Assembly: GCA_040954595.2 (NCBI GenBank)
Contig: CM082576.2
Span: 1,958,760 to 2,022,759, forward strand
Length of the DNA stretch: 64,000 nucleotides
Direction: 5' to 3'
DNA from: Balanoglossus misakiensis
Lineage: Eukaryota > Animalia > Hemichordata
The notes beneath the pieces were generated by a model. It was given only the letters and a program-made list of their open reading frames with translations. It ran no database searches and was not told the origin of the DNA. This document shows positions 45,997 through 63,313 of the stretch, piece after piece; the first letter of the stretch is position 1; each line of letters starts with the position of its first letter. The position numbers were made by a program, and so were the translations under genes.

Positions 45997-46521
<525 letters not shown>

Positions 46522-54782: not shown

Positions 54783-57360
54783 AATATAGCTGCAAGCAGC
54801 GATGACGGGCCCAAGCTTAAGCCGAAGGTCAGAGGTCATAAGTGGTCACCCAAAATTTGGGCAACAAATTTTGACCCCATACTGGTCCGTGTCCCACAAG
54901 AACAAAATCTCTAGCCCTATTGGTTCGCCTACAATTATATATGTGCATAATTAATGAGGTAAAGTGTAAGGCTCCATCAGGAGTTCCATCCCTCCAAATG
55001 CCAAGGCTGTAGCTGCTGTGCATGCCGAGATATGATAAAGTAGGTCAAAGGTCACCTGAGGTCACCCAAAATTTGGGCAAGAAATTTTGACCCCATACTG
55101 GTCCATGTTCAGCAAAAATTAAACCTCTAGCCCTATTGGTTAGCCTGGAATTAGGTATGCACATAATTAATGAGATAAGCAGGTGTCACAGGTGACCCCC
55201 AATTTTGGCTTTTAAATTTTAGTCCCAACCCTCCAAACGCCAAGTCTGTACCTGCTCTGGAAGCGGAGATATAGGAAAGTAGGTCAAAGGTCACCTGAGG
55301 TCACCCAAAATTTGGGCAAGAAATTTTGACCCTATACTGGTCCATGTTCAACAAAAACCAAACCTATAACCCTATTGGTTGGCCTGGAATTAGGTATGCA
55401 CATAATTAATGAGATAAGCAGGTGTCACAGGTGACCCCCAATTTTGGCTTTTAAATTTTAGTCCCAACCCTCCAAACGCCAAGTCTGTACCTTCTCTGGA
55501 TGCCGAGATATATGAAAGTAGGTCAAAGGTCACCTGAGGTCACCCAAAATTTCGGCAATTTTTTTTTTTACCCTATACTGGTCCATGTCCCACAAGTACA
55601 AAACCTCTAGCCCTATTAGTTAGCCCAGAATTAGGTATGCACATAATTAATGAGTTAAGCAGGTGTTACAGGTGAGCCCAAAATTTTGCCTTTTATTTTG
55701 GTCCCATTTTGCTCACGGGCCAATAGAGAGTCACAGTACAGGACCATTGCACAGATGTGGACATAGCATCATAGCTTAACTATAGAAAGTATAGGCCTAT
55801 GGCTGGGTCCAAAAAATATGAAATATAATATTTAAAAATCTTCTTCTCAAAATTGACTTGGCCCAGAGCCTTGAAATTTGGCATGTAGGACACTGACCAT
55901 ATGGTCCGCAAAATGATTTCACAGAATTTTGATATCGTCATTCATATGCAAATTAGGCCCATTTGAAAACTTTGCCCATATATGGTCATCAGGTCACGTG
56001 ACTAATTAAACATTCACAAGAGTACAACTCATGCTCTCATTGGCCTGCACCATTGTGCCAAGTTTGAGATTTGTAGGTTCAGCCGTTTTCAAGATGTACT
56101 TGACGAAAAAAACTACACAAGAAAAAGAAGTAGAAGAATATAGCTGCAAGCAGCGATGACGGGCCCAAGCTTAAGCCGAAGGTCAAAGGTCATAAGTGGT
56201 CACCCAAAATTTGGGCAAGAAATTTTGACCCCATACTGGTCCGTGTCCCACAAGAACAAAATCTCTAGCCCTATTGGTTCGCCTACAATTATGTATGTGC
56301 ATAATTAATGAGATAAAGTGTAAGGCTCCATCAGGAGTTCCATCCCTCCAAATGCCAAGGCTGTAGCTGCTGTGCATGCCGAGATATGGTAAAGTAGGTC
56401 AAAGGTCACCTGAGGTCACCCAAAATTTGGGCAAGAAATTTTGACCCCATACTGGTTCATGTTCAGCAAAAATCAAACCTCTAGTCCTATTGGTTGGCCT
56501 GGAATTAGGTATGCACATAATTAATGAGATAAGCAGGTGTCACAGGTGACCCTCAATTTTGGCTTTTAAATTTTAGTCCCAACCCTCCAAACGCCAAGTC
56601 TGTACCTGCTCTGGATGCCGAGATATAGGAAAGTAGGTCAAAGGTCACCTGAGGTCACCCAAAATTTGGGCATTTTTTTTTTACCCTATACTGGTCCATG
56701 TCCCACAAGCACAAAACCTCTAGCCCTATTAGTTAGCCCAGAATTAGGTATGCACATAATTAATGAGTTAAGCAGGTGTTACAGGTGAGCCCAAAATTTT
56801 GCCTTTTATTTTGGTCCCATTTTGCTCACGGGCCAATAGAGAATCACAGTACAGGACCATTGCACAGATGTGGACATAGCATCATAGCTTAACTATAGAA
56901 AGTATAGGCCTATGGCTGGGTCCAAAAAATATGAAATATAATATTTAAAAATCTTCTTCTCAAAATTGACTTGGCCCAGAGCCTTGAAATTTAGCATGTA
57001 GGACACTGACCATATGGTCCGCAAAATGATTGCACAGAATTTTGATATCGTCATTCATATGCAAATTAGGCCCATTTGAAAACTTTGCCCATATATGGTC
57101 ATCAGGTCATGTGACTAATTACACATTCACGCGGGTACTGCACGAGCTCTCATAGACCTGCACCATTGTGCCAAGTTTGAGATTTGTAGGTTCAGCCGTT
57201 TTCAAGATCTACCTGAGCAAAAAAACTACACAAGAAAAAAAAAAAAAAAAAGATGAAAAACCCCAGTAATACCAATAGGGCACAAGCCTGCTTGGCTTGT
57301 GCCCTAAAAAACCCCAGTAAAACCAATAGGGCCCAAGCCTGCTGGGCTTGGGCCCTAATA
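54783..57360 (-). mobile_element. Head-to-tail dimer of the HINE/DINE-1-like non-autonomous Helentron element
   Basis: Copy A ~54783-56136 has four repeat units (54826, 55042, 55281, 55520; spacing 216/239/239). Copy B ~56137-57360 has three (56180, 56396, 56635). On the minus strand: 5' hairpin containing subTIR GGGCCCAAGC, T-rich tract, core, tandem repeats, 3' subTIR GCTTGGGCCC, stem-loop GCTGCTTGCAGC. A/T-rich flanks, no obvious target-site duplication, no transposase ORF. Confidence 0.82.
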
Positions 57361-58203
57361 ATTCATTTATAACACAACGCACATAAGCTTGCATTCTGGA
57401 TTTAATAACATACGCCCTGAGCAATCAAGATGTCTGCTTGTAGAACCCAGAAGACAATATCTGTTGATCATTTCTTATTTTTAGAATTAATAGGAATCGG
57501 ATATATAGCAGTGTTCGACAACATTAATTTATAAGTAATTTGACGTTCGGGCAGTTTGTTGAAGTTCCGTTATATTATTTACAAATATATACAAGGACTT
57601 CCCCTATACGACAGTTCTCAACGAAATAGATTTTCCACCATATACATATATTTTATTAAAATTAAAAAAGGACGTTCGTATGGTGTCTACATGTCATTGG
57701 CATTAATAATTTATTCCTTGGTTCTGGGTATTCAATTATGGGAACAGGCCCCTACTTTTGACAGTTGTACTTACTGATTTTTCAAAATGCTTGAAAATTA
57801 AGCACGAAACTGACGCAATATTTGGCGTTTCCAAAACTATTTTGGATGAAATATCTGGTGACGAAGACAATACACCAACATTCGTGGACAATGAGGCTTG
57901 AAAAGTCGCTCATGACAAATTCGCCGTAAAATGCCCGGGAAATGACACACTTTGCTTCCTTTAACATAATTTCAGGGAAGAAATGAAATTTAATACCACG
58001 AACTTGGTCTCCGGACATAATGAAAGTTATAAACGATCTCCTCTTACATTTTACGCGGTCGATGACCATCTCGCATCAGTTCACTTATAACAAGGTATTT
58101 TGCTTTACAGCATCAAAACCCAAATGACTTAATCTTCCTTCAAATCAAATTAATATATAAATTATTTTTAAAACTGATGCATTTATTTCCTCCTTGTGTA
58201 TCT

Positions 58204-58211
58204 TATAAAAG
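58204..58211 (+). promoter_or_regulatory. TATA box of the putative cytokine/hormone gene
   Basis: TATAAAAG about 90 bp upstream of an ATG in good Kozak context (ACAATGG, 58292). Confidence 0.6.
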
Positions 58212-58291: not shown

Positions 58292-59611
58292 ATGGCGATG
58301 TACAAATTCAGTTGGTAAGTTAAATTGTCGGATTACGTACAAGACGAAGACTTGCAACTGTAGTCTTATGACGACAGATTTACCTGGAAGTTTCGTAAGA
58401 ATCGCCACTTTGCTGCTTCAATCACATTCTTATCTCCTTAAAGTTAGAATTGTAGAGTGGTTATTTATAATCGACCGATTTTTGGCATTAAGGGAAAAGC
58501 AGTGTACTTTTATTCGTGTACGCATTCAGAGCGAAATGTGCTGTCGTCGTTCCCAAAATACACGATTAGATTAGACTAGACTAGTTGCATGCTTGATATT
58601 CTCCAAGCAAGTCAACTCTCAGGGTAATATTAGACTAATATCATTTCGATTTTTTTTATCATCCACGACTTTCCGTGTAATACAAGACATTGTGATTTCA
58701 TTGTACACGAATTGGGGAAGGGTTGATGAAACTCACGCATGCTAGTTTTAATTGGCTCATTGCCAAGATTTTCTGGACATGCATGCTTTGCTCCCCGTAC
58801 GATGATAGAAGGGTGATGTCACAATAACCAGTTGAGTTATATTGACATTGAGGTTGAGATTATGATCCAAAAGAACGTAGCTATAAATTAGTCAAATTTC
58901 GATTCGTTTTGGGAAGTTGGCCGGGCCCACTCACAGTTGCTTCCTGTGCGTCCACAGGACGGTGCGACCTGCGTGTGCGTCTGGGTAAAGGTGGTTACTT
59001 GTTGAGTAATATAATCGCAAGCTTACTAGTATTTTAATCTGTTTCAGGGTTTTTATCTCGGGTGTCATATTTAAATTGTTGTGTGGCGTAAGTTGTCATT
59101 CCGGGTCCACCAGTTACCATGGTTGCCAAGAGATGACCACTCAGTTTTACAACGCCATCAACGGTGTGTCGAAATTCATCGGAAGTGACGTATACAGAAT
59201 TTACAGAAGCAGTGTAAGTTGACATGCCTTCATTTCCCGGATGTACACTGTATACAGCAAATTTGTCAGAACATTGGAGGGCCCTGTCGATAGGTAAAAG
59301 GGTACAGCCAACTGAAACACGTACAAACAGTTCCAAACGTCTGCCTGTCTTTTATACCAGGTACAAGTGATAGCCAAGGCCAAGATTGCTGACGTCAGCA
59401 AAACTCCACACATTGAAGTTGTAATCATACTGTGTCCTCCAAGTTCACCTGTGACAAACCTTTAAATTTCAGAGGAATTGGAGCCTGCAGCCATCAGACC
59501 TGGCCCCTTTCGAAGTTTATAGAAACATCAGTACTTGTTATAACGAGTGGCAGGTAAATATCCTCCTCCTCCTCCTCCTCATCATCATCATCATCGTCGT
59601 TGTCATCATAA

Positions 59612-59645
<34 letters not shown>

Positions 59646-60753
59646 TGCAGCCTGTCCAAAAGCTAACATTTCTCACAAGAAAACTGACATATTGTTCCCT
59701 GCCATGGATGTTAAGAATCAAACATCATATGCACGATTCAGAACTTGGAGACAGCGACTTACTATCGGGATTGTACACAATTACACAGGTTATGGAGGTA
59801 AGAAATTGACACTTCATAAGGGGTGCGGTTCCAAATTGAAGATGGCGATTTCAACGGATACTTTTCGAACAGATACACTTTTGCTGATGTTTTGAATCGG
59901 CAGACATTGAATTCAATCCGATTCTCTAATGATCAACATTGATAAATACTGGTTATACCACTTCTGTACATGGCTTGGATGAACATCTCTTATCATGGCC
60001 AAACGGCAAAGATTTGAATATTTAGATCGTCAGTGGGTCACACCTGCTAGTATTTAATAAACAATACATGTACATGTACATGTATTTGGAACGCAATCAC
60101 AAATTATTGACTGAGCTCTAAGTCAGCTTTACTTTGTAATTATAAATTTTCTGTTAATTATTCCCACAACAGTAATTACCGTGAAGTTTGTTCGCTCTTA
60201 TTTGTAGGAAAGTTTACCGCAGCTGGAAAACTGCCAGGATCCGCCCTCTGGAGACGGGCCTCGGTGTGGAGTGAATGATGTTGTTCAACTGTTGGAAAAC
60301 TGTATTTGGGTAAGTGCGTCAAAGTTTTATCCTTGGAACGGTTACATCCCCAGAGAGAGGGGTGAAAAACAGCGACGGAGAGAGAGAGATAGACAGACAG
60401 AGACAGACACAGAGGGAGACAGACAAAGAGAAAGGGAGAGAGACGGACAGATGAATAAGCGATTTGAACATTTTCTGTCTGTCCGCTTTTCCGTCCGTCC
60501 ACCGGTTCACTCCTTATTATCACCTACAGGCTTCAGTCAAAAATTGCACAATCAATATATTAACAACTATATATTTGTTTGTATCCATCAGGAGTCCAGT
60601 TCTGTTGAAGAGTGGGATATACTTGCTTTGCCAATAGACGAGAGCAAATTCTACCTAAGCGTCTTGTATGACTTTACTATGGACTGGGCTAAACTGCAAA
60701 TAACTCTCCAAACTTTCCGCAGTGACGACTGGGATAACCAATACATTGATTAA
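58292..60753 (+). CDS. Secreted 226-aa protein, putative long-chain four-helix cytokine (growth hormone/prolactin-like), 6 exons
   Basis: Exons 58292-58314, 59048-59213, 59473-59553, 59651-59797, 60208-60309, 60592-60753; all GT-AG, intron phases 2,0,0,0,0, 681 nt with no internal stop. Protein: MAMYKFSWVFISGVIFKLLCGVSC-HSGSTSYHGCQEMTTQFYNAINGVSKFIGSDVYRIYRSS|RNWSLQPSDLAPFEVYRNISTCYNEWQ|PVQKLTFLTRKLTYCSLPWMLRIKHHMHDSELGDSDLLSGLYTITQVME|ESLPQLENCQDPPSGDGPRCGVNDVVQLLENCIW|ESSSVEEWDILALPIDESKFYLSVLYDFTMDWAKLQITLQTFRSDDWDNQYID. The gene model is well supported; the family assignment is inference. Confidence 0.75.
59562..59645. repeat. Compound trinucleotide microsatellite (CCT)n(CAT)n...(ATT)n filling intron 3 of the putative cytokine gene
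   Basis: Direct reading; lies between the donor at 59554 and the acceptor at 59650. Confidence 0.9.
60378..60450. repeat. GA/GACA-rich simple repeat in intron 5 of the putative cytokine gene
   Basis: Direct reading. Confidence 0.85.
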
Positions 60754-61484
60754 ATGTAATATCGAGATGTGTCGACGATAACCGTTCATGTTGATGAATA
60801 GAAAATATGTAGGTCATAATGACCAGTGATATTCGCATTAATTTTTTTCTCATGTAGGTCATACTGACCAAAATAACTATAACGTGTTCCTTCTGACCAT
60901 AACACATAATATGAATTTCCTCTCTCAATAACAATCAAAACATAAAATGTCGATCTTTATAGCATCATTATCCTTAAACATCATCCGCGGTTGTTTCATT
61001 TTCTATATACTTATTAGTCAGTGTCTTTTACTAGATGATCTCAACATTTACTTCCGAACACTTTCTGACCATCTGTATCACTGAACAGTTGAACCGCAAG
61101 GCATTAGAATGTTTTCCCAATGTATTTCACTTTGTGATTTACTATGACTTGGTACTTATGCAAGAAGTGTGCATGCATCCTACACATTAATAAACCCATG
61201 TGACATTCTAGAAGTTGATATGTTAAGGGGATAAGCTTTATTAAGGAAACTTGAAAGTAAAACTACATGTATATTAAACACATAATTATACTCCATAGCA
61301 TAGCATAGCATGGCTATTTTGCTCTTTTGATGAAATTCTCATTAGTTTATAGATTAAAATAGAGTGTAATTAGTACCTACGCAACTTGTAAAATAAATTG
61401 CGTCATCATACTAGAATTTTGATCACGGCTAAGATTTATGGAGAAAATAAAGAGTAAAATGAAAATCTACGTGATGGAAATTGT

Positions 61485-63313
61485 TCACAGCGAATCAAGT
61501 GGACAAAACGACAATGCAATGAGCATGCGCACGTCTTCCATATCCTTCTGCAGATGTTCACCTGTTAAAAAGAACAAAATGGCAAAACGTTACTCCCCTC
61601 GGGGACAAATTTTCAGAAAAAATGTTGGTCCTCCAAAGCTTTCATTTCTTTGCTATATTTAAGTATGTGCTGGGTTTGTTTGAAATCAAAGAAGAAAACA
61701 TGGTGTTATCTTAGCATTTTCCTAAACATCACTAACTTTAATTTTTCTCCACAAAGTCAACAGAGATTAGCAGCACCTACCTTTGAATATTCATACACTC
61801 TATACTGTGTTCAAACTACTGTGGGTCAATGGCGTCAGTTCGTTCACCTGAAATGTTGTGAAATGTCCCCAATTATTAACCATATACGTCATTTAATGAA
61901 GTTCAACATTTAGTACAGAAAAATATGTGAAAAGTATGAATTGTGTATTATTCCTTCCGGACTCACTCTGTTCATAGTGTTCCGTTTCACGAATTTAAAT
62001 ATCTAAGACATTTTACAAAGATAAAAAAAAACGTGTCGATGTAAAGTTTCAATGAAAGACTTCTGTACTCACAGTAATATTTCACTTCTAAGTATTTGAA
62101 TGTGTTGAAGCATGGATCGCCGAATACGTTATTGCTTGCCCTGACACTGCAGGATTTCTTGTTTTCACACGTCTCCTTGACAACGTCAATACTACCCTCA
62201 GCGCCACACGCTTGGTCACTGGTCTTTGGGTGTGGACAAGTCTCGCCATTGGCAGTTCTGCCGTAGTTGGCTGATACCACGTGTATGGTGCCGTCGCTGC
62301 ATTGTAAACCCATCGTTTCATGTTCGCAGACCAGTTCGGTGTTTACGATGGCGTAGACCTGGTTCGCGAAGGAACCTCCCTCGCCATCATCCCGACATGC
62401 ATTTGAAGGTCCGTACCTGTAATAACGCTGCCCAGCATCTTGACTAGAGGCACACCAACCGCCATTTTGGACGGCAAAGACACCGAAGCCTCGGCTTTCT
62501 GCAGCAGCTGCACATTTTGGGATTGCGTCCTCTCGCTGTTGATAACGGCCATCCAACCTAAAATCGGCGCCCTCCAAGGTCGGAATGGCCCGAGTTGGTC
62601 TGTCCTGATAACATCCTATGGTTTCTGTTATCAAATAAGGTAATTCACAACGTCAAAATGGGGGGGGGGGGGTATGCACAAGAAAAGTAGAGTAAACATA
62701 CTTTTATTACTCTGGTCGCGTCAAGGTTAGAAATTGAATGGAACATTAACACGGGCATTAATTTTCCCCTGAGACACTTACCTATACTTACATATACAAT
62801 TGCACTTACCGTAGTCAACATCTTCTACACTAGGTTCGGTAGCAGGGGGGCGATTCTCGGTCGTAGGACTACGTTCTGTCGGGTTGGGGAGTTCTGGCGG
62901 GTCACATTCTTCTACTGTCAAGATATCATTCGACAATTCTTCACAGTCTGGCAGACTGCACGCAGCTGCAATATAACAACAGAGGCTCGCACTGACATCG
63001 TTTCTCGAAAAAAAGGGTTGCCAACCAGCTGTGAGAAAAGTGATTGTCTCTCTCTACAAAAAAATGATTCTAGGTAGGCGGATGGCGAAGCTCTCCATCC
63101 CTGGTTCTCTTCAGTTGGAGAAACAATGACGTGTAACATTATCTTTTTTTGCTCGTATGATTGCAAAAGAAATCAAGTACATGTACGTAGTTGCCAATTC
63201 CGTGTTGTATTTTCCTAGATTAAGAGGGAGAGAGAGAGAGAGATCTTACCTGATTCTGCCGTGCAGGACAAAACAGTCAGTACCAACACCCAAAACGCAG
63301 ACAACCGGATCAT
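61485..63313 (-). CDS. Secreted protein with Pro/Thr-rich linker, WSC-like Cys-rich domain and SUEL/rhamnose-binding (Gal_Lectin) domain, ~282 aa, 4 exons
   Basis: Exons 63313-63250 (signal peptide MIRLSAFWVLVLTVLSCTAES), 62965-62810, 62624-62073, 61561-61485; all phase 1. WSC-like GCYQD...CAAAAESRGFGVFAVQNGGWC; SUEL motifs CEHETMGLQC, ANYGR, CENKKSCSV, FGDPCFNTFKYLEVKYYC. The last Cys codon is split T|GT across the final intron, and the last exon is less certain. Confidence 0.85.

What the first reader, a model, noticed from the sequence alone, without database searches (positions are those of the whole stretch)
58292..60753. Hidden six-exon gene encoding a growth-hormone/prolactin-like four-helix cytokine in an invertebrate
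Seen: TATA box, Kozak ATG, a 23-nt first exon and five more GT-AG exons splice into one 226-aa ORF. It has a ~24-aa signal peptide, six Cys in the mature chain, two N-glycosylation sequons (NWS, NIS) and four amphipathic segments. The ORF track shows only a chimeric piece of it. Established: GH/PRL genes have a tiny first exon, signal peptide plus helix 1 in exon 2, phase-0 internal introns and ~200-230-aa precursors. By-eye matches to human sequences recalled from memory: CQEMTTQFYNAI vs PRL CQVTLRDLFDRAV and GH LFDNAM; DVYRIY vs GH DTYQEF at the end of exon 2; WQPVQKL vs GH WLEPVQFL; VLYDFTMDWAKLQITL vs GH helix 4 LLYCFRKDMDKVETFL (LYxFxxDxxK[LV][QE]xxL). Inference: a deeply diverged class-I helical cytokine or hormone, possibly a JAK/STAT receptor ligand; such ligands are poorly known outside vertebrates. 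Caveats: the helix-4 Cys is Asp, the C-terminal disulfide is absent, and intron 1 is phase 2 rather than phase 1. An IL-6/CNTF-like or independent lineage is therefore equally possible.
Basis: partly seen in the sequence, partly recalled or inferred. Interest (0 to 1): 0.92.

Follow-up and report, generated by a model that had tools for sequence, protein, structure and literature searches.

The report
Acorn-worm helical cytokine candidate
A six-exon reading frame in what is likely an acorn worm (hemichordate) would encode a 226-residue, likely secreted protein predicted to fold like growth hormone, interleukin-6 and interferons; if so, it would be a candidate hormone or cytokine in an animal group where we found none reported.

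Summary
The gene model is as described: six exons, five GT-AG introns (phases 2,0,0,0,0), 226 aa, hydrophobic N-terminus, six mature Cys, two sequons. It beats 30 of 30 shuffles, but no transcript was seen. A neighbouring gene points to an acorn worm (82% Glandiceps, 76% Saccoglossus). No relative was found for the exons searched, and the spliced protein could not be folded. The growth-hormone likeness is partly real: 6 of 15 identities in helix D, ending at the same distance from the stop, and a helix-C Leu-x-x-Gly like the receptor site-2 glycine. 8 of 30 GH/PRL-invariant positions match (P 0.003 with recalled intron anchors, 0.056 without; helix A 0 of 10). It fails GH/PRL membership: the four-Cys framework is absent. 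A tiny first exon plus four phase-0 introns is also the IFN-lambda 2/3 layout, and exon 5 holds a fifth amphipathic helix. Best reading: a long-chain class-I cytokine signalling through JAK/STAT (0.5). Class II-like 0.17, unrelated helical protein 0.28, no gene 0.05. Folding the spliced product decides it.

The parts
58204..58210 (+). TATA box, 88 nt upstream of the ATG
   Evidence: sequence
58292..58314 (+). Coding exon 1 (23 nt, residues 1-7 plus 2 nt), ATG in ACAATGG context; phase-2 intron follows
59048..59213 (+). Exon 2: rest of the predicted signal peptide (to about residue 24-26), Cys34 and amphipathic helix A (36-63, about 59130-59213)
   Evidence: periodicity peak 99 degrees, P 0.004; SignalP not run
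59473..59553 (+). Exon 3: inferred A-B connecting loop (64-90) with both N-glycosylation sequons (65, 81) and Cys85
   Evidence: loop assignment inferred
59651..59797 (+). Exon 4 (91-139): inferred helix B with Cys105 and Pro108, a break at Gly123, then helix C with Leu127-x-x-Gly130
   Evidence: single-sequence AlphaFold2: helices 92-122 and 124-138, pLDDT 65; helix C periodicity P 0.012; by-eye match to hGH and hPRL helix C
60208..60309 (+). Exon 5 (140-173): Cys148, Cys159, Cys171 and an extra amphipathic helix (160-173) in the inferred C-D connection
   Evidence: peak 96 degrees, P 0.011
60592..60753 (+). Exon 6 (174-226 and stop): Trp181, then inferred helix D (about 189-217) with the GH-like Leu-Tyr-x-Phe-x-x-Asp-x-x-Lys core at 198-207
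   Evidence: periodicity not significant (P 0.43)
61189..61194 (+). First AATAAA after the stop; candidate polyadenylation signal
   Evidence: untested

Best explanation
Six exons join into an open 226-codon frame that likely encodes a secreted, glycosylated long-chain class-I helical cytokine of a probable acorn worm, predicted to fold as an up-up-down-down four-helix bundle and likely to signal through a class-I cytokine receptor and JAK/STAT. Shown: the frame, splice sites, hydrophobic leader, Cys and sequon positions, helical periodicity in three segments, and the likeness to GH/PRL at helices C and D. Inferred: exon 2 = leader and helix A, exon 3 = AB loop, exon 4 = helices B and C, exon 5 = a long CD connection with a fifth helix, exon 6 = helix D. 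Helix D (198-212) with helix A would form receptor site 1. Gly130 would let a second receptor chain dock at site 2, as G120 does in hGH. Trp181 ahead of helix D could serve as a site-3 aromatic, as IL-11 W168 does on gp130, so a gp130/Domeless-type receptor is as plausible as a GHR/PRLR-type one. Its six cysteines would form a non-GH disulfide set, e.g. Cys34-Cys148 tying the N-terminus to the end of helix C (inferred from topology only).
For: Precursor of 226 aa against 227 for hPRL. Helix D: 6 of 15 identities to hGH 163-177, and both chains end 29 residues from the first matched Leu (by eye); the GH=PRL-invariant helix-D motif scores 4 of 10, P 0.002 stop-anchored and 0.04 with free register. 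Helix C: 4 of 8 identities to hPRL 126-133 including the glycine (by eye); G120K blocks hGH site 2 (PMC10410519). Pro108 lies 17 residues into exon 4, as GH Pro89 and PRL Pro94 do if my recalled intron places are right. All four helices together: 8 of 30 invariant positions, shuffle mean 3.5, P 0.003; with +-5 slack 10 of 30, P 0.014. Helical periodicity in 3 of 5 candidate helices; exon 4 is modelled as two helices. Lancelet GH-like proteins also lack the four Cys, are <18% identical to vertebrate proteins and were modelled on IL-11 (PMC9546618), so such divergence has precedent. An IL6R-like receptor, and a JAK with only its kinase domain, are reported for Saccoglossus (PMC13203501).
Against: No Pfam family at significance for any of exons 2-6 (one DUF at E 0.099), and no relevant PDB sequence hit. 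Without intron anchors the motif score is 12 against a null mean of 9.9, P 0.056. Registers were chosen after looking at the sequences, and the GH/PRL intron places are recalled, not checked. Helix A matches 0 of 10 invariant positions and helix B 2 of 6. Helices B and D lack significant periodicity. Both helix-D cysteines are replaced (Asp200, Ser217). The first intron is phase 2 and there is an extra exon in the CD connection. No orthologue was found for exons 5-6 among 1.84 billion representatives, although Glandiceps and Saccoglossus proteins are in the related collection.
Confidence: 0.5

Rival explanations
1. A class-II helical cytokine (interferon/IL-10 type): five or six helices, acting through CRFB-type receptors in antiviral or immune signalling.
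For: A tiny non-phase-0 first exon followed by five exons with phase-0 introns is the IFNL2/IFNL3 layout, and the other introns match IL-10-family positions (PMC2654155). IFN is defined by about 200 aa, a leader, five helices and 0-0-0-0 phases, and is now reported in lancelets (bioRxiv 10.64898/2026.05.30.728932). Exon 5 carries a strong extra helix (P 0.011). Ser177-x-x-x-Trp181 early in the last exon resembles the IFN Ser-x-Cys-Ala-Trp motif.
Against: The IFN-alpha1/beta invariant motif scores 4 of 16, P 0.16; its Cys, Ala and Arg are missing. Pro187 interrupts the helix after Trp181, and 45 residues follow that Trp against 24-25 in the printed IFN peptides. The remaining tail resembles GH helix D.
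Confidence: 0.17
2. An unrelated, lineage-specific secreted alpha-helical protein (mucus, cuticle, venom-gland or matrix protein) whose likeness to cytokines is generic amphipathy plus chance identities.
For: All searches were blank. Unanchored motif P 0.056. The same sequence can be aligned by eye to GH, PRL and IFN alike. In lamprey only 1 of 14 small secreted 0-0-0-0 genes was helical and an IFN, so the layout alone is weak evidence.
Against: Size, leader, phase pattern, one or two helices per exon, and anchored matches at helices B, C and D coincide (P 0.003). In the lamprey screen the one helical gene was the cytokine.
Confidence: 0.28
3. Not an expressed gene, or spliced differently from this model.
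For: No transcript was seen. Intron 5 (282 nt) is open in frame, and exons 3, 4 or 5 can each be skipped without a stop, so other chains are possible.
Against: Canonical donors and acceptors, TATA, Kozak context, poly(A) signal and a leader fit one chain; 0 of 30 shuffles reach the real chain length; coding GC 0.44 and GC3 0.50 against 0.36-0.39 in the surrounding 2-kb windows.
Confidence: 0.05

Closest known systems
Vertebrate GH/PRL/somatolactin family
   Same: Precursor size, leader, tiny first exon, phase-0 internal introns, helix-D core (6 of 15 identical to hGH), helix-C glycine, helix-B proline.
   Different: The four-Cys framework that defines the family (PMC9956162) is absent; extra exon and helix in the CD connection; phase-2 first intron (phase 1 in GH/PRL, recalled); helix A has 0 of 10 invariant positions.
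Lancelet GH-like proteins (GHl, three Bfl genes)
   Same: Invertebrate deuterostome, about 200 aa (208), no GH cysteines, very low identity to vertebrate hormones, four-helix model.
   Different: They did not appear in the searches with exons 5-6; their alignment figures are not held as text, so no direct comparison was possible. They are cloned and assayed; this gene is not.
IL-6/IL-11/CNTF/G-CSF long-chain cytokines
   Same: Leader plus helix A, loop exon, B+C exon and last exon; a 147-nt B+C exon as in IL-6 and G-CSF (recalled, unchecked); an aromatic before helix D as in IL-11 W168; Asp-Trp in helix D as in IL-11 (recalled; the paper search found no printed sequence).
   Different: One more exon; no profile hit; these ligands are reported only in vertebrates (PMC13203501 abstract in the listing; PMC12284397).
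IFN-lambda 2/3, IL-10 family, lancelet and lamprey IFNs
   Same: Six-exon layout with a tiny first exon and then 0-0-0-0 phases; a fifth helix.
   Different: C-terminal IFN motif not significant (P 0.16); longer last exon with a GH-like helix; first intron phase 2 rather than 1.

Membership tests
GH/PRL/SL family | Four conserved Cys forming two disulfides | tested here: not met
   In the helix-D register the two Cys are Asp200 and Ser217, and there is no Cys after 171 (definition from PMC9956162)
GH/PRL/SL family | Five to six exons with the family's intron positions | tested here: inconclusive
   Six exons fit the count; two internal introns fall in register with recalled positions and one is 2-3 codons off; the first is phase 2; intron 5 has no recalled counterpart
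GH/PRL/SL family | Match to the Pfam Hormone_1 profile | tested here: inconclusive
   Single exons gave no such hit; the whole protein was not scanned
GH/PRL/SL family | Binds GHR/PRLR-type receptors | not testable with these tools
   No genome held for this window
Class-I long-chain helical cytokines | Secreted protein of about 200 aa with a signal peptide | tested here: met
   226 aa, hydrophobic residues 6-24; hydropathy only, SignalP not run
Class-I long-chain helical cytokines | Up-up-down-down four-helix bundle | tested here: inconclusive
   Only fragments were modelled: exon 4 helical, pLDDT 65; exon 5-intron-exon 6 read-through pLDDT 42; fold searches generic or blank
Class-I long-chain helical cytokines | Signals through a WSXWS receptor and JAK/STAT | not testable with these tools
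   Receptor-like genes are reported in Saccoglossus; no assay
Class-II cytokines (IFN/IL-10) | Five core exons with 0-0-0-0 phases (extra tiny first exon in IFNL2/3) | tested here: met
   Phases 2,0,0,0,0; positions relative to IFN helices were not aligned
Class-II cytokines (IFN/IL-10) | C-terminal Cys-Ala-Trp...Arg motif of type I IFNs | tested here: not met
   4 of 16 invariant positions, P 0.16; Cys, Ala and Arg absent. This motif is specific to type I IFN.
Class-II cytokines (IFN/IL-10) | Five- or six-helix IFN/IL-10 fold | tested here: inconclusive
   Five candidate helices; no whole-chain model

The most novel reading that the evidence does not exclude
An ancestral-type helical cytokine from outside the chordates that carries growth-hormone/prolactin receptor-contact motifs (helix-C Gly, helix-D Asp-x-x-Lys) on an interferon-lambda/IL-10-type six-exon, five-helix frame. 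It would be a living intermediate between class-I and class-II cytokines, dating the ligand family to the deuterostome ancestor and giving the orphan ambulacrarian cytokine receptors a ligand.
Probability: 0.2. Interest if true: 0.93.

Novelty: new variant of a known kind. Interest (0 to 1): 0.72.

Why it matters
Cytokine receptors, JAK and STAT are reported across invertebrates, but their helical ligands are mostly missing because they evolve too fast for BLAST. [quoted passage not shown] IL-6-family ligands and leptin are reported only in jawed vertebrates, and a 2026 preprint found the IFN fold only in lancelets and vertebrates. A search for 'hemichordat' with 'helical cytokine' returned 0 papers. 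If the fold is confirmed, this gene moves the origin of GH/IL-6/IFN-type ligands back to the deuterostome ancestor. It also supplies a concrete ligand to test on hemichordate receptors, and it shows that screens fixed on 0-0-0-0 phases or on annotated proteomes could miss such genes (inference).

Tried and rejected
No whole genome is held, so paralogues, receptors and synteny could not be examined. No RNA holder was listed; this is no evidence on expression. Word-index search with exon 6 among proteins of 88-280 aa: no candidate. phmmer of exon 5 + intron 5 + exon 6 against 1.84 billion representatives: 3 hits at E<=0.001, all 3 on the read-through intron (query 40-131), rejected as low-complexity noise. 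Exons 2-4 were not searched in these two protein collections. Pfam on 5 single exons and on the read-through piece: one DUF (E 0.099) and one PH-like domain on the intron (E 0.071). PDB sequence searches: DHX15 on the intron, ribosomal L35 at E 1.5, none for exons 6 and 4. ESM Atlas: no usable hit for exon 6 or exon 2. Metagenome contigs: 381 pattern matches, 0 confirmed; degenerate pattern 0. tblastn of the model against the window: no paralogue, best non-self E 0.40. AlphaFold2 of the read-through piece: pLDDT 42, exon 6 drawn as strands at pLDDT below 50, uninformative and not fold-searched. Exon 4 model: Foldseek 0 matches; VIA-align best Z 5.1, rmsd 4.2, long helices and coiled coils, no cytokine among the 50 rows shown, uninformative. 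The ARMT1 search did not place the host (best 58%, full-length proteins excluded by length); the exact look-up of the TMEM229B frame was blank. A STAT-type site at 57971 is at chance frequency (23 against 22.75 expected); ATTTA motifs in the 3' region 2 against 1.84 expected. Earlier-findings look-ups were empty. Human GH/PRL intron positions could not be confirmed from papers. Paper searches found nothing; searches listed no hemichordate cytokine ligand in titles or abstract starts.

Full report
OBSERVATION. All five introns are GT-AG; four donors are GTAAG, and they are 4 of the 6 such sites in the region. TATAAAA is at 58204, the ATG context is ACAATGG, and the first AATAAA is at 61189. A search for the longest open exon chain with permissive splice rules gave 237 aa on the real region and 41-192 aa on 30 shuffles. 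The protein has a hydrophobic N-terminus (peak 2.08, residues 6-16), Cys at 20, 24, 34, 85, 105, 148, 159 and 171, and sequons at 65 and 81. The mature chain would be about 23.5 kDa, pI 4.6. No transcript was seen. I put the gene's reality at about 0.95.

HOST. The single-exon TMEM229B neighbour (46000-46497, minus strand) is 82% identical to Glandiceps talaboti, 76% to Saccoglossus kowalevskii and 67% to Asterias, among 41 hits at E<=1e-60. In a tree of 14 rows (13 chosen from the 41 hits) its nearest rows are the two acorn worms, but no strongly supported clade holds it. The host is therefore probably an enteropneust hemichordate, on the evidence of one gene. No genome is held.

RELATIVES. 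None were found: word search with exon 6, phmmer of exon 5-intron 5-exon 6 against 1.84 billion representatives (3 hits, all on the intron), Pfam, PDB sequences, ESM Atlas, metagenome contigs and the window itself. Only unbroken exon pieces of 27-55 aa or the read-through piece were searched, so sensitivity was low, and exons 2-4 were not searched in the two large protein collections. The spliced protein was neither profile-searched nor folded. Fragment models: exon 4 forms helices 92-122 and 124-138 (pLDDT 65), matching only generic long helices; the read-through piece failed (pLDDT 42).

ANATOMY. Alpha-helical periodicity is significant for 36-63 (P 0.004), 125-146 (P 0.012) and 160-173 (P 0.011), and not for 91-117, 190-217 or the loop 64-90. 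I compared the protein by eye with hPRL and hGH as printed in PMC6121189 and PMC10410519 (a G120K, T142C, H151C construct). Helix D: residues 198-212 share 6 of 15 residues with hGH 163-177, and both proteins end 29 residues from that leucine; the two GH cysteines are Asp200 and Ser217. Helix C: residues 127-134 share 4 of 8 with hPRL 126-133, including Gly130, the counterpart of hGH G120, whose substitution blocks site-2 binding. Helix B: Pro108 is 17 residues into exon 4, as GH Pro89 and PRL Pro94 are from the start of their B+C exon (intron places recalled). Helix A: Cys34-Gln35 lies 30 residues from the exon end, as in hPRL (intron place recalled), and the hydrophobic spacing fits, but none of 10 GH=PRL-invariant residues is kept.

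STATISTICS. Using only the 30 helix positions identical in hGH and hPRL, the protein matches 0/10, 2/6, 2/4 and 4/10 (8 of 30) with A, B and D anchored on introns or the stop: shuffle mean 3.5, P 0.003 in 100,000 exon-wise shuffles; with +-5 slack 10 of 30, P 0.014. With order only and no anchors: 12 against 9.9, P 0.056 in 2000 shuffles. Helix D alone with free register: P 0.04. The registers were picked after inspection and the anchors are recalled (searches did not confirm them), so this is suggestive, not proof.

MECHANISM. Most likely (0.5) a secreted long-chain class-I cytokine. Helices A and D would form site 1, and helices A and C around Gly130 site 2, dimerising a WSXWS-type receptor and activating JAK/STAT. 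Trp181 ahead of helix D could act like IL-11 W168, which stacks on gp130 at site 3 (PMC10920896). An IL6R-like receptor is reported in Saccoglossus (PMC13203501). All receptor steps are inferred. Rival 1 (0.17) is a class-II cytokine: IFNL2/3 have a four-codon first exon followed by five exons with phase-0 introns (PMC2654155), the same layout as here, and IFNs have five helices; but the type I IFN C-terminal motif scores 4 of 16, P 0.16 and Pro187 breaks the expected helix. Rival 2 (0.28) is an unrelated helical secreted protein; in lamprey 14 small secreted 0-0-0-0 genes yielded one helical IFN. Rival 3 (0.05) is no gene or another splice form; exons 3, 4 or 5 can be skipped in frame and intron 5 is open.

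COMPARISON AND NOVELTY. It is not a member of the GH/PRL family as defined by the four-cysteine framework (PMC9956162). The nearest precedent is the lancelet GH-like group: 208 aa, low identity (PMC9010856), lacking the four Cys, <18% identical to vertebrate proteins and modelled on IL-11 (PMC9546618). [quoted passage not shown] PMC12284397 reports leptin and IL-6-family ligands only in jawed vertebrates. The IFN preprint found no IFN fold outside lancelets and vertebrates; its custom structure set names two sea urchins and a tunicate, and its species list was not visible. Drosophila Upd ligands are a known invertebrate case. 'hemichordat' with 'helical cytokine' gave 0 papers; the library lacks most subscription papers. 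I rate it a new variant of a known kind, conditional on the fold.

PAPERS SEEN. Passages only: PMC9010856, PMC5376476, PMC12284397, PMC13203501, PMC6121189, PMC10410519, PMC11855606, PMC10920896, PMC10722180, PMC2654155, PMC4690019, PMC9956162. PMC9546618: passages plus supplement parts 1, 5 and 6 and term searches (alignment figures not held). bioRxiv 10.64898/2026.05.30.728932: passages and section 5; supplements not seen. PMC10531307: term search, no hits. Li et al. 2014 and Ocampo Daza and Larhammar 2018: not read. Exon sizes and intron places of GH, PRL, IL-6 and G-CSF, and the IL-11 Asp-Trp likeness, are recalled and come from no call.

VERDICT. About 0.67 that it is a helical cytokine of either class; interest 0.72.

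Noticed in passing
window 60310-60591: Intron 5 is 282 nt and open in frame, so retention would give a 320-aa form with an Arg/Glu-rich insert; exons 3, 4 and 5 are each skippable in frame.
   Followed up: partly
window 57811-57990: A CRE-like site (57811), a perfect STAT/GAS site (57971-57979) and an adjacent IRF-type AANNGAAA (57981) lie within 500 nt upstream of the ATG; each is at chance frequency for the window.
   Followed up: partly
window 54982-55706 and 56336-56819: Two arrays of the same 239-bp unit (3 and 2 copies, 84-89% match) upstream of the gene, plus a 51-bp duplication at 57256-57358; satellite or small mobile element.
   Followed up: no
window 9847-46497: Conserved neighbours: Memo-like (about 10 kb, +), a multi-exon ankyrin-repeat gene (about 13.6-32 kb, +), ARMT1 (37.2 kb, -), ChaC (42 kb, -), TMEM229B (46 kb, -); usable as synteny anchors.
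   Followed up: partly
window 61987-62634 (-): Convergent downstream gene piece with a weak WSC-like and a SUEL (rhamnose-binding) lectin domain.
   Followed up: no
window 59571-59645: Intron 3 (97 nt) is mostly stacked trinucleotide repeats, ending in (TAT)11 just before the acceptor.
   Followed up: no
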